Origin: Nostoc linckia z4
GTDB taxonomy: Bacteria > Cyanobacteriota > Cyanobacteriia > Cyanobacteriales > Nostocaceae
DNA: 62,881 bases
Direction: 5' to 3'
Assembly: GCF_002608075.1 (NCBI RefSeq)
Contig: NZ_LAHA01000035.1
Span: 14,453-77,333, forward strand
Under the pieces are notes generated by a model. That model made no database searches. It saw only the letters and a program-made list of their open reading frames with translations, and was not told the origin of the DNA. The position numbers and the translations under genes were made by a program. Below, piece by piece: positions 36,327-37,124 of this stretch. Each line of letters begins with the position of its first letter. The stretch's first letter is position 1.

Positions 36327-36555
36327 GCAAAAGCAGCTTTGACTTTCTCAAACCCCAGTTTACTTTCTCATTTTGGTGTTTTCCGCAAGCAAAATCAGCT
36401 TTGACTTTCTCAAACCCCAGTTTACTTTCTCATTTTGGTGTTTTCCGCAAGTAAAATCAGCTTTGACTTTCTCAAACCCCAGTTTGCTTTCTCATTTTGG
36501 TGTTTTCCGCAAGTAAAATCAACTTTGACTTTCTCAAACCCCAGTTTGCTTTCTT
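36327..36555 (+). repeat. tandem repeat, 62-bp unit x ~3.7
   Basis: Units at 36327, 36389, 36451 and 36513 (GCAAAATCAGCTTTGACTTTCTCAAACCCCAGTTTACTTTCTCATTTTGGTGTTTTCCGCAA), nearly identical. Upstream of the 36699 gene. Confidence 0.9.
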
Positions 36556-36698
36556 TTTTCAGTAGTTCGCGCATTCATGACAAATATCGCCCTTGTAGCA
36601 AAAGTTATTGCAGATTTGCCGGAATTCTCTCAAGCCGATCTATACGGAATTTTTTAAGGTAAAGAATATTAACCGTACTTAATTACAAGGTGTAGATT

Positions 36699-37124
36699 AT
36701 GGCTCGTAGAAAAAGAACTTCCGTAGTCTTAGAAAAAGCAGTGCGTCGTGCAGCTGGTATAAACTCAATTGCTTCAAATTTAGATTTAGGCAATGGACTC
36801 ACCTTACCTGCTTTCTCAAGCCTGATTGAAAAGATGCGGACTAGAGAAAATGCCTATAACAGTGCGCTTTCTAGCTTGGATAAATTGTACCGTGAAATGC
36901 TGGAAACAGAAAACGAGTTGGGAGATATGACAGAACACATGCTGATGGCAGTTGGGACTCGATATGGCAAAAGCAGTGTAGAGTACGGGATGGCGGGAGG
37001 AGTTCCTAAAAACCAGCGTCGTAAGGGACTCCGAGGCGAGTCGCCAACTTTCAAGGCTGATGAATCGTCATTTGTTGCTAGCGTACAGAGCAAGAATGGA
37101 AAAGAAACAGCAACAACAAGTTAG
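36699..37124 (+). CDS. hypothetical coiled-coil protein (paralogue of 51556-51924)
   Basis: 141 aa. Colinear similarity to the 122-aa protein (LD.GNGL, EHML..V..RYGK.S.EYGMAGG). Confidence 0.65.
   Translation: MARRKRTSVVLEKAVRRAAGINSIASNLDLGNGLTLPAFSSLIEKMRTRENAYNSALSSLDKLYREMLETENELGDMTEHMLMAVGTRYGKSSVEYGMAGGVPKNQRRKGLRGESPTFKADESSFVASVQSKNGKETATTS

What the first reader, a model, noticed from the sequence alone, without database searches (positions are those of the whole stretch)
36327..37124. 62-bp tandem repeat array directly upstream of a small coiled-coil gene (first of an inverted paralogue pair)
About 3.7 nearly identical 62-bp units (36327-36555) end ~140 nt before the start of a 141-aa gene. 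Its paralogue at 51556-51924 is colinear and roughly one-third identical by eye, sharing the EHML..V..RYGK.S.EYGMAGG motif. The paralogue lies in the opposite orientation 14.4 kb away. It is also preceded by a tandem array, but of an unrelated 20-bp unit. Two paralogues that each independently carry upstream tandem arrays suggest a functional link, such as iteron-like binding sites, copy-number-dependent regulation or phase variation. Their inverted arrangement brackets a 15-kb block (36.3-52.3 kb) inside the nifD element.
Basis: seen in the sequence. Interest (0 to 1): 0.55.

Follow-up and report, generated by a model that had tools for sequence, protein, structure and literature searches.

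The report
Phased repeat arrays guarding small genes
Two related small helical-protein genes in this Nostoc nifD element each sit behind a tandem DNA array with a 20-21-bp beat, and the same pairing recurs in nearly every relative examined, which points to an undescribed protein-plus-DNA-array module rather than chance repeats.

Summary
A 62-bp x3.7 array (36326-36554) ends 144 nt before a 141-aa gene (A). A 20-bp x8.7 array (52121-52294) lies upstream of its paralogue B, which is 45% identical to A.

One claim is wrong. The two arrays are not unrelated. The 62-bp unit is three ~21-bp subunits, and both arrays share the core AAAANCAGCTTT. That core occurs 136 times inside arrays and never elsewhere on that strand in 713 kb.

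- All 80 A-type loci and all 19 B-type loci carry such an array.
- Distant relatives do too: Oscillatoria, Kovacikia, Tildeniella, Scytolyngbya, a third Nostoc paralogue and a Blastocatellia MAG. Their periods are 21, 42 or 63 bp, but the unit sequences are all different.
- In 932 kb, 109 of 110 strong arrays upstream of family genes have a 20/21-multiple period, against 2 of 24 elsewhere.
- Copy number varies, by exactly one unit between near-identical strains.

The protein family (~950 clusters at 50% identity) has no Pfam, PDB or fold match.

Best reading, inferred and not shown: the protein oligomerises on its own array, with sites two helical turns apart on one face of the DNA, and so controls its own promoter. 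This resembles iteron or centromere-type operators, but there is no partner NTPase or Rep protein.

The parts
36286..36325 (+). Conserved distal boundary block of the A module (..CATTaCAttGCAAgAATATAGATAAAcCtAAATTTAGTT..), directly left of the array
   Evidence: Conserved in 34 aligned A loci although the upstream neighbour gene varies. On the minus strand it reads as a TTGCTA-18-TATATT promoter-like site at 36330..36301.
36326..36554 (+). A array: 3.7 copies of a 62-bp unit. Each unit is three subunits: CAAAATCAGCTTTGACTTTCT (21), CAAACCCCAGTTTACTTTCT (20) and CATTTTGGTGTTTTCCGCAAG (21).
   Evidence: TRF; sequence; subunit matrix built from 495 subunits. It is the most curved 160-bp stretch of the whole window in a wedge model.
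36555..36574 (+). Degenerate terminal subunit (TTTTTCAGTAGTTCGCGCA), the promoter-proximal end of the array
   Evidence: This terminal variant is conserved in all A loci, including those with a single unit. The last sub1/2-type subunit ends at -145/-144 from the ATG in 54 of 71 loci.
36575..36698 (+). Conserved leader/promoter region of gene A. Putative -10 AAGAAT at 36662-36667; Shine-Dalgarno-like AAGGTG at 36687-36692.
   Evidence: Positions -100..-1 are as conserved as the coding sequence across 80 loci. The -10 and Shine-Dalgarno assignments were made by eye and by analogy with TAGAAT/TAAGAT/TATAAA boxes in relatives. They are inferred, with no 5' end data.
36699..37124 (+). Gene A: 141-aa basic, all-helical protein (helices 9-24, 36-89 and 94-98; disordered tail from ~117)
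   Evidence: ORF; 376 homologous clusters; AlphaFold2 models with pLDDT 72.7 and 79.5; no Pfam, NCBIfam, PDB or fold match.
51556..51924 (-). Gene B: 122-aa paralogue of A
   Evidence: ORF; 45% identity to A, E 7e-35; 168 homologous clusters.
51925..52120 (-). Conserved leader of gene B. Putative extended -10 TGGTATATAAA around 51993-51984. Inverted repeat AAAGAAC (51986-51980) / GTTCTTT (51958-51952).
   Evidence: Conservation across 20 B loci. Two pairs of the inverted repeat show compensatory changes (UA:8/GC:6 and AU:9/GC:3). The leader differs at a single position from that of the near-identical strain L081.
52121..52294 (-). B array: 8.7 copies of the 20-bp unit TAAATCAAGTTTTGGACTT(G/C), read on the gene strand
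   Evidence: TRF; sequence. L081 has exactly one unit fewer.
52295..52337 (-). Distal boundary block of the B module (GATCGCATCCCTAATTTAGGCTGTGCTGTGCAACAGCTTGCTG)
   Evidence: Homology with L081 starts here. Further upstream the two strains differ (xisI in the window). The block shares AATTTAG with the A boundary.
38696..40909 (+). Cache-HAMP histidine kinase, the conserved downstream neighbour of gene A. In the window it is separated from A by an RTX-repeat gene on the other strand.
   Evidence: Pfam. It lies downstream of A in the same orientation in 49 of 80 loci and in L119.

Best explanation
Gene A and gene B each belong to a conserved four-part module:
- a short boundary block;
- a head-to-tail array of 20-21-bp units (in A grouped as 62/63-bp triplets);
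- a conserved 140-190-bp promoter/leader;
- a gene for a small basic helical protein.

I propose the array is a double-stranded DNA operator for the protein encoded beside it. The protein would oligomerise through its 54-residue helix. It would touch DNA through its basic N-terminal arm and helix and/or the invariant YGK.S.EY..AGG motif plus the basic stretch that follows. One unit every two helical turns puts all sites on one face of the DNA, so neighbouring proteins can bind cooperatively into a filament or wrapped complex. That complex would reach the fixed promoter-proximal unit and set transcription of the protein's own gene (autoregulation). Unit number would tune threshold and cooperativity.

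Shown here: the gene-array coupling, the conserved period with sequence turnover, the fixed polarity and register, copy-number variation, and the absence of dispersed copies.

Inferred: binding by this protein, the direction of regulation, and the transcription start.
For: Coupling:
- Every A locus has the array (80/80, counting eight contigs that break inside it and one with a scaffold gap in it).
- Every B locus has it (19/19).

The period is conserved while the sequence is not:
- Oscillatoria 21 bp x10.4, Kovacikia 21 bp x6.4, Blastocatellia MAG 42 bp x3.7.
- Nostoc paralogue C 63 bp x3.7, Tildeniella 21 bp x6.3, Scytolyngbya 21 bp x10.7, metagenome L117 21 bp x9.6.
- Kovacikia megaplasmid 42 bp x4.1.
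- All have unrelated unit sequences.
- Periods of 20 and 21, and of 62 and 63, interchange among close relatives. This rules out coding and fits 10.0-10.5 bp per helical turn.

Specificity:
- 109/110 arrays upstream of family genes have a 20/21-multiple period, against 2/24 elsewhere in 932 kb.
- The core AAAANCAGCTTT occurs 136 times in arrays and 0 times elsewhere on that strand in 713 kb.

The only constant neighbour is the family gene:
- Flanking genes differ between lineages.
- No partner protein recurs.

Array and gene duplicated as a unit. Paralogues A1, A2, B and C in one genome each keep their own array type.

The proximal end has a fixed register, -145/-144 in 54/71 loci, next to a leader as conserved as the coding sequence.

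The protein has a basic N-terminus (MARRKRTS...), a long helix suited to oligomerisation, and a basic stretch after the invariant AGG.
Against: - Binding and autoregulation are untested, and there are no 5' end data.
- In some distant relatives the array is far from the gene (-470 to -1190), or another ORF or repeat lies between (L104, L115). A promoter-proximal operator role therefore cannot be universal.
- One marine cyanobacterial locus shows only degenerate 42-bp periodicity.
- A1, A2 and C arrays in one genome are similar to each other. This is awkward if each protein must recognise only its own array.
- Units are not generally palindromic.
Confidence: 0.55

Rival explanations
1. The array is an upstream regulatory region bound by some other factor, not by the adjacent protein. 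Candidates are a response regulator working with the neighbouring Cache-HAMP histidine kinase, or a nucleoid protein that prefers phased or curved DNA. The small protein would only be the regulated output.
For: - The protein has no recognisable DNA-binding domain.
- A histidine kinase follows gene A in 49/80 loci.
- The window's A array is the most curved 160 bp in 62.9 kb. Nostoc C and some B arrays are also strongly curved in a wedge model that reproduces classic controls.
- Arrays of paralogues A1, A2 and C resemble one another.
Against: - Array sequences differ completely between lineages, while the only conserved neighbour is the family gene. A conserved unlinked factor would be expected to keep its site.
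- The kinase is absent next to B, C and the distant members.
- Predicted curvature is absent in the Kovacikia, Blastocatellia, Tildeniella and L117 arrays.
- The motif is not found at other promoters in about 0.9 Mb.
Confidence: 0.2
2. The array acts as RNA. It could be transcribed as a long repetitive leader or as a separate non-coding RNA, as with the NsiR1 tandem array upstream of hetF in Nostocales. It might then be bound by the arginine-rich N-terminus of the protein.
For: - There is a precedent for a tandem sRNA array in the same order of cyanobacteria (PMC3610870, PMC4030482, found).
- The B array sense strand folds better than shuffles (z -4.0).
- The N-terminus MARRKRTS..RR resembles arginine-rich RNA-binding peptides (own knowledge).
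- A promoter-like site at the distal edge of the A array points away from the gene.
Against: - No Rfam match even at E<=10.
- No promoter-plus-terminator in each unit, and no terminator-like site in the A region.
- The A sense strand shows no excess structure (z +0.34) and the signals are inconsistent between A and B.
- Hairpin arms within units are not significant.
- A period held at 20-21 nt, or exact multiples, across unrelated sequences is what B-DNA geometry predicts. RNA does not predict it.
Confidence: 0.12
3. The repeats are a non-functional by-product: a slippage-prone or hitch-hiking satellite, or a contingency (phase-variation) locus whose only effect comes from gain and loss of units.
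For: - Copy number varies widely: 1 to ~5 composite units in A and 5.6 to 18 units in B.
- It varies by one unit between strains with 99% identical protein.
- Units within an array are homogenised, at 85-100% identity in most Nostoc arrays.
- Insertions between array and leader are tolerated in L070 and L073.
Against: - A neutral satellite would not persist at the same place and polarity in front of one protein family from Nostocales to a Blastocatellia MAG while keeping a 21-bp beat through complete sequence turnover.
- The arrays are not in a promoter spacer or a coding region, so there is no simple on/off switch.
- They are not members of a dispersed repeat family.
Confidence: 0.08

Closest known systems
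Type II plasmid partition centromere and ParR (e.g. pSK41 parC-parMR, R1 parC/ParR); also TubR/tubC (own knowledge, not retrieved here)
   Same: - A tandem array of about 10-20-bp direct repeats lies immediately upstream of the operon that encodes the small protein binding it.
- Binding is cooperative and on one face of the DNA, giving a higher-order nucleoprotein complex.
- The same complex autoregulates the promoter.
- Repeat sequence is lineage-specific while the architecture is conserved.
   Different: - No actin- or tubulin-like or ParA NTPase gene in the module.
- Chromosomal, and absent from Nostoc plasmids and from phages.
- AlphaFold2 predicts no ribbon-helix-helix N-terminal strand.
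- Several paralogous modules occur per genome.
Plasmid iterons and Rep initiators (own knowledge)
   Same: - Direct repeats of 17-22 bp are phased at about two helical turns.
- They lie next to the gene of the protein that binds them, with autoregulation and titration depending on copy number.
   Different: - No Rep or winged-helix fold or family.
- Not on plasmids.
- Origin features were not examined.
- The conserved synteny in Nostoc chromosomes argues against a replicon.
F-plasmid TraM and its sbmA-C sites (own knowledge)
   Same: A ~130-aa protein with an N-terminal DNA-contacting part and a helical oligomerisation part. It binds phased repeated sites upstream of its own gene and autoregulates.
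   Different: - No sequence or fold similarity detected.
- No oriT or relaxase context.
- The TraX-family gene near A is present in only 21/80 loci.
NsiR1 tandem array upstream of hetF in Nostocales
   Same: A tandem array of short direct repeats upstream of a protein gene, conserved across heterocystous cyanobacteria (PMC3610870; PMC4030482).
   Different: - In NsiR1 each repeat is its own transcription unit giving an sRNA.
- Here there is no Rfam hit, no per-unit promoter or terminator, and a period tied to the DNA helical repeat.
H-NS-like nucleoid proteins (H-NS, MvaT, Lsr2) autoregulating at curved upstream DNA (own knowledge)
   Same: - A ~110-140-aa protein with a coiled-coil oligomerisation part and a short basic C-terminal DNA-contact motif.
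- Curved A/T-tract DNA lies upstream of its own gene. The A array is the most curved DNA in the window.
   Different: - No sequence or fold similarity.
- The arrays are specific, locus-restricted and, in several lineages, not curved or A/T-rich.

Membership tests
ParR/parC-type (type II) partition cassette | Tandem direct repeats immediately upstream of the cassette | tested here: met
   Arrays of 20-21-bp units lie upstream of A, B and their relatives.
ParR/parC-type (type II) partition cassette | Adjacent actin-like (ParM), tubulin-like or ParA NTPase gene | tested here: not met
   The neighbours of A and B are a histidine kinase, an RTX-repeat gene, DUF2267 and XisHI. No NTPase partner recurs in any lineage.
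ParR/parC-type (type II) partition cassette | Ribbon-helix-helix DNA-binding N-terminus in the small protein | tested here: not met
   AlphaFold2 gives coil for residues 1-8, then a helix at 9-24, with no N-terminal strand. No RHH Pfam hit. A monomer model cannot fully exclude a strand that forms only in the dimer.
ParR/parC-type (type II) partition cassette | Location on a plasmid or other low-copy replicon | tested here: not met
   tblastn finds the family on none of 72,556 plasmids except a 1.2-Mb Kovacikia replicon, and in no phage.
Iteron/Rep replication-control module | Direct repeats phased at about two helical turns next to the gene of the binding protein | tested here: met
   Periods of 20, 21, 42, 62, 63 and 84 bp.
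Iteron/Rep replication-control module | Rep initiator fold or family (Rep_3-type winged helix) | tested here: not met
Iteron/Rep replication-control module | Origin function (DNA unwinding element, DnaA boxes, autonomous replication) | not tested
   Only noted that sub3 contains TTTTCCGCA, one mismatch from a DnaA box (own knowledge).
NsiR1-like tandem sRNA array | Match to the RNA family, or a conserved sRNA structure in each repeat | tested here: not met
   No Rfam match at gathering score or at E<=10. No consistent excess folding.
NsiR1-like tandem sRNA array | Each repeat carries its own promoter and terminator | tested here: not met
   No promoter-like site on the gene strand within the units, and no terminator-like site in 36150-37250. 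A unit of 62 bp, or 20 bp in B, is too short for both.
NsiR1-like tandem sRNA array | Transcription of the repeats | not testable with these tools
   No transcriptome or 5' end data for this strain. Ava_2814, the homologue in Trichormus variabilis, is mentioned in no paper.
Dispersed cyanobacterial repeat families (STRR, HIP1, small dispersed repeats, MITEs) | Many copies scattered through the genome | tested here: not met
   The unit motifs occur only in the two arrays of the window. The core 12-mer is absent outside arrays on that strand in 713 kb. Whole genomes could not be scanned.
Simple-sequence contingency (phase-variation) locus | Repeat-number change shifts a reading frame or the -35/-10 spacing | tested here: not met
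   The arrays end 144 nt (A) and 197 nt (B) before the start codons. A conserved leader separates them from the putative -10.

The most novel reading that the evidence does not exclude
This is an undescribed, widespread chromosomal protein-DNA system. It comprises a family of about 950 sequence clusters of small helical proteins, found in filamentous cyanobacteria and at least one acidobacterial MAG. Each protein would build a sequence-specific, lineage-specific nucleoprotein filament on a private array of sites spaced two helical turns apart. It would do so with a new DNA-binding fold and without any partner NTPase. Nostoc keeps several orthogonal copies per genome. In at least two Nostoc lineages a convergent pair brackets a kinase-containing block inside the nifD excision element.
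Probability: 0.4. Interest if true: 0.85.

Novelty: new variant of a known kind. Interest (0 to 1): 0.72.

Why it matters
If the inference holds, several things follow:
- A large, unannotated protein family (no Pfam model, annotated 'hypothetical' or wrongly as 'ATPase involved in DNA repair') gets a first functional handle: a private phased operator array.
- It would add a new DNA-binding architecture to the small set of proteins that polymerise on tandem sites (ParR, TubR, omega, Rep, TraM), here in a chromosomal setting with no partition or replication role.
- Because array sequences differ between paralogues and lineages while the geometry is fixed, the modules could supply orthogonal, tunable regulator-operator pairs for cyanobacterial engineering.
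- Practically, these arrays break short-read assemblies. Eight of 80 contigs end inside them, and gene callers place spurious ORFs on them.
- The link to a Cache-HAMP kinase, and the position inside the nifD element, which is known to be excised in heterocysts in model strains, give testable leads to physiology.

Tried and rejected
- **Family assignment.** Pfam, NCBIfam and PADLOC scans of A, B and 130 relatives gave only coiled-coil noise: Med9, YscX, BrxA at E>1e-3, and the precomputed PF27821 CEP162_helical_3 'weak' hit.
- **Ribbon-helix-helix idea.** Suggested by the MARRKRTSVVL N-terminus, it is not supported by the models.
- **Palindromes.** Apparent compensatory changes between unit variants suggested a palindrome in every unit. 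Arms are not longer than in shuffles except in the Blastocatellia unit and one Nostoc variant.
- **RNA readings.** No Rfam hit, and folding z-scores are inconsistent between strands and arrays.
- **Intrinsic curvature as the common denominator.** It is strong in Nostoc A and C and some B arrays but absent in four other lineages.
- **Gapless matrix search.** A position-weight matrix of the A subunit did not hit B units, because of a 1-2-bp offset in the second half. The relation shows only in the shared first half.
- **Conserved partner protein.** None was found beside distant members. ORFs called on the arrays are repetitive artefacts.
- **Known motifs.** NtcA, HetR, LexA, DIF (TCCGGA), HLR1 and Pho-box motifs were compared by eye from memory. 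None fits.
- **Literature.** Four searches found nothing on these arrays, this family or Ava_2814.
- **Mobile-element reading** (arrays as transposon ends). No transposase is present, and the TraX...A-HK synteny is conserved.
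Full report
**1. The observation**

TRF reports an array at 36326-36554 with period 62, 3.7 copies and 97% matches. A second array lies at 52121-52294 with period 20, 8.7 copies and 96% matches.

- The 141-aa ORF is 36699-37124 on the + strand, 144 nt after the first array.
- The 122-aa ORF is 51556-51924 on the - strand, 197 nt after the second array on its own strand.
- The two proteins are 45% identical over 109 residues, E 7e-35.
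- They share the EHML..V..RYGK.S.EYGMAGG motif.

nifB, nifS, nifU, nifH and a nifD 5' part lie at 18.3-26.3 kb. A XisA-like integrase is at 57050-58351 (-). nifK and nifE start at 59138. Both genes therefore lie inside a nifD element of about 32 kb. The window matches contig LAHG01000027.1 of assembly GCA_002608345.1.

**2. Anatomy of the arrays**

The 62-bp unit is not a single long repeat. It is three subunits in series:
- CAAAATCAGCTTTGACTTTCT (21 bp)
- CAAACCCCAGTTTACTTTCT (20 bp)
- CATTTTGGTGTTTTCCGCAAG (21 bp)

In other strains the composite period is 63, 42, 84 or 105 bp, and TRF also reports the 21-bp sub-period.

The B unit, read on the gene strand, is TAAATCAAGTTTTGGACTT(G/C). In other strains it is a 21-bp unit such as CAAAACCAGCTTTTGCGACAT. 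The first halves of the A subunits and the B units are nearly the same.

The 12-mer AAAANCAGCTTT was counted in 713 kb of fetched loci:
- 120 times in A arrays;
- 16 times in B arrays;
- never elsewhere on the gene strand;
- five times on the opposite strand, four of them inside arrays.

Array and gene were duplicated together. The leaders also show residual similarity. The repeats are also not a dispersed family. In the 62.9-kb window the motifs occur only in the two arrays.

**3.

Both proteins belong to large Nostocales families, with 376 and 168 clusters at 90% identity.

*A family.* A scan of one genome per species returned 80 A-type loci. TRF on the 1 kb upstream found the 62/63-type array in nearly all.
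- Two loci that seemed to lack it carry one to one and a half units.
- Eight contigs begin 195-610 bp upstream of the gene, inside or at the edge of the array, and one has a scaffold gap in the array. This is the usual signature of a repeat that breaks assemblies.
- Among 72 complete loci the number of sub1/2-type subunits is mostly 4-8, with a maximum of 12.
- The last such subunit ends at -145/-144 from the start codon in 54 of 71 loci.

*B family.* A metagenome scan returned 19 loci. All have a 20- or 21-bp array of 5.6-18 copies, ending about -183 from the start codon in most (-181 to -197 in 16 of 19).

*The wider family.* A profile search of 1.84 billion cluster representatives found 949 clusters at E<=1e-3 and 573 at E<=1e-10. 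All are ~115-180 aa with the same architecture. Named members come from Oscillatoria, Lyngbya, Phormidesmis, Tildeniella, Scytolyngbya, Kovacikia, marine cyanobacterial MAGs and one Blastocatellia MAG.

I fetched eleven distant family members:

| Locus | Organism | Array period and copies | Position relative to the start codon |
|---|---|---|---|
| L103 | Oscillatoria FACHB-1407 | 21 bp x10.4 | -691..-474 |
| L104 | Kovacikia chromosome | 21 bp x6.4 | -988..-855 |
| L118 | Kovacikia 1.2-Mb replicon | 42 bp x4.1 | -478..-307 |
| L105/L106 | Blastocatellia MAG | 42 bp x3.7 | -324..-169 |
| L107-L109 | Nostoc paralogue C | 63 bp x2.7-3.7 | about -510..-130 |
| L113/L114 | Tildeniella | 21 bp x6.3 | -386..-255 |
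| L115 | Scytolyngbya | 21 bp x10.7 | -1193..-971 |
| L117 | metagenome | 21 bp x9.6 | -349..-149 |
| L102 | Lyngbya | contig ends 216 bp upstream | - |
| L111/L112 | marine cyanobacterium | only degenerate 42-bp periodicity | - |

The unit sequences have nothing in common between these lineages.

Of these, 109 have a period that is a multiple of 20/21 bp. Elsewhere there are 24 arrays, and 2 have such a period.

**4. Dynamics**

- The window and metagenome contig L081 (B protein 99% identical) differ at a single position in the leader.
- Their arrays differ by exactly one 20-bp unit plus a few point differences.
- Similarity between them starts only ~45 bp upstream of the array.
- Periods of 20 and 21, and of 62 and 63, alternate among close relatives. 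The arrays are therefore not coding, and a change of one bp per two helical turns is tolerated.
- Units within an array are homogenised (85-100% identity in most Nostoc arrays), while arrays of different lineages differ. This is concerted evolution.
- L070 and L073 carry ~200-bp insertions between array and leader.

**5. The flanks**

*A module.*
- The 100 nt before the A start codon are as conserved as the coding sequence across 80 loci.
- By analogy with TAGAAT, TAAGAT and TATAAA boxes in relatives, I place a putative -10 (AAGAAT) at 36662-36667 and a Shine-Dalgarno-like AAGGTG at 36687-36692.
- That would put the array at about -120 to -345 from the transcription start. This is inferred; no 5' end data exist.
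- No good -35 box is present, which suggests dependence on an activator.
- The block left of the A array is conserved in 34 aligned loci although the upstream gene varies. On the minus strand it reads as TTGCTA-18-TATATT. This remains unexplained.

*B module.*
- The leader has a conserved TGGTATATAAA box overlapped by an inverted repeat (AAAGAAC...GTTCTTT).
- Two pairs of that repeat show compensatory changes, but these separate only two clades.

**6. The protein**

- With 130 diverse sequences AlphaFold2 gives pLDDT 79.5.
- Residues invariant or nearly so across the family are R17, E71, L82, S93, Y96 and A99-G100-G101, plus S8, L11, A14, G31, N54, D61, G90 and E95.
- The N-terminus is basic (MARRKRTS), and the stretch after AGG is basic.
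- There is no Pfam, NCBIfam, PADLOC or PDB-sequence family.
- The database label 'ATPase involved in DNA repair' and the precomputed PF27821 hit are coiled-coil noise.
- The family is absent from phages. It is absent from plasmids apart from one megaplasmid.

**7. Genomic context**

- A Cache-HAMP histidine kinase follows gene A in 49 of 80 loci. In the window an RTX-repeat gene has been inserted between them.
- Upstream neighbours vary: TraX-family in 21 loci, XisI in 9, DUF6653 in 2.
- B lies in other contexts in some genomes, for example near ndhCKJ/psbEFLJ in L101.
- In Nostoc MAG P12642 the convergent pair recurs inside the nifD element next to xisA. The order is XisI-[20 bp x9.5]-B, then DUF2267, DLH, methyltransferase and kinase, then A-[62 bp x3.8]-XisI on the opposite strand. 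Only 5.3 kb separates the two genes.
- The 'bracket' is therefore a recurring arrangement in part of the genus, enlarged to 14.4 kb in the window by extra genes. Its meaning is unknown.
- Distant members often sit among STAND, TIR, CHAT, Cas10 or XisHI genes. I cannot say whether this exceeds what is expected for these genomes.
- No partner protein recurs. In L117 two family paralogues flank one array.

**8. Mechanism**

The one thing that stays constant from Nostoc to a Blastocatellia MAG is this: a member of the protein family, preceded on the same strand by direct repeats whose period is 20-21 bp or an exact multiple, with free choice of sequence.

- A period of two turns of B-DNA places every unit on the same face of the double helix. 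That is the geometry used by proteins that bind cooperatively side by side.
- Lineage-specific sites beside a conserved protein family are what co-evolving protein-site pairs show, as in iterons and partition centromeres.
- The simplest model is therefore that the encoded protein oligomerises on its own array and controls its own promoter, with unit number tuning the response.

I rate this at about 0.55. The rivals are:
- **Another binder, or curvature as such (0.2).** Predicted curvature is striking in the window: the A array is the most curved 160 bp. It is missing in four lineages (wedge parameters recalled from memory and checked on classic controls).
- **An RNA role (0.12).** There is no Rfam hit, and folding signals are inconsistent.
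- **A non-functional or purely contingency repeat (0.08).**

**9. Comparison with known systems**

The module works most like ParR/parC, TubR/tubC, iteron/Rep or TraM/sbm arrangements. It fails the membership tests for each:
- there is no NTPase or Rep partner;
- no ribbon-helix-helix or winged-helix fold is predicted;
- it is not on plasmids.

It differs from the NsiR1 tandem array of Nostocales, which is an array of transcription units. I found no paper describing these arrays, this family or Ava_2814.

**10. Verdict**

- One descriptive claim ('unrelated unit') is wrong.
- The mechanism is inferred.
- I classify it as a new variant of a known kind (a phased tandem operator with its cognate small protein), carried by an uncharacterised and widespread protein family.
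- Interest 0.72.

Noticed in passing
window 31288-33121: A tRNA-Ile with anticodon TAT (31288-31363) and two adjacent tRNA-Met(CAT) genes (32969-33121) flank a reverse-transcriptase ORF (31534-32586, -) inside the nifD element.
   Followed up: no
window 36301-36330 (- strand): The conserved block at the distal edge of the A array reads as a sigma-70-like promoter (TTGCTA-18-TATATT) pointing away from gene A. The block is conserved in 34 aligned loci although the upstream gene differs. It could drive an unannotated divergent transcript.
   Followed up: partly
window 51952-51986 (- strand); alignment A6: An inverted repeat AAAGAAC...GTTCTTT overlaps the putative -10 of gene B. It is kept through compensatory changes at two pairs, in two clades only. 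It could be an operator palindrome or a 5' stem-loop.
   Followed up: partly
window 15410-16811: A CRISPR array of 20 repeats (Rfam CRISPR-DR5, 37-nt repeat GTTTCAATCCCTAATAGGGATTAAGAAAAATTGTAAC) lies upstream of the nif genes.
   Followed up: no
window 11844-13643: A 195-bp x9.4 (390-bp x4.7) tandem repeat lies inside the 1244-aa ORF 10794-14528, so it is a coding repeat.
   Followed up: no
L119 9234-16905 and window 36.3-52.7 kb: The convergent A/B pair, with the kinase, methyltransferase, dienelactone hydrolase and DUF2267 genes between, recurs inside the nifD element of another Nostoc (MAG P12642) next to xisA. There, xisI copies lie outside both arrays. The window's version is enlarged by RTX, PBP-DUF4912, patatin and other genes.
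   Followed up: partly
family proteins P0243-P0390; window A residues 130-136: The disordered C-terminal tails of many family members carry recurrent short (T/S)NG(K/S/A) motifs, often several per tail. The B subfamily lacks the tail.
   Followed up: no
L105 -1172..-690; L115 1-6022; L103, L104, L113, L117; window 52350-56225: Family genes often lie among conflict-type genes: CRISPR array, cas10/cas2, TIR-SAVED, CHAT, PIN, NB-ARC/NACHT STAND NTPases and XisH/XisI. Whether this exceeds the background for these genomes was not tested.
   Followed up: no
L073 about -330..-120 and L070 about -360..-110 relative to the gene start: Insertions of about 200 bp separate the array from the conserved leader. 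The one in L073 has inverted TACGTCTCTAC-type ends, like a miniature transposable element. The module therefore tolerates loss of the usual array-promoter spacing in at least two genomes.
   Followed up: no
window 36378-36386 and repeats (sub3 of the A unit): Sub3 contains TTTTCCGCA, one mismatch from the cyanobacterial DnaA-box consensus TTTTCCACA (own knowledge). B arrays lack it.
   Followed up: no
L103 3243-3671, L115 2728-3090, L104 2999-3310, L101 9611-9823: Public gene calls place ORFs on the arrays. Their translations are 7-residue repeats, i.e. annotation artefacts caused by the 21-bp period.
   Followed up: yes
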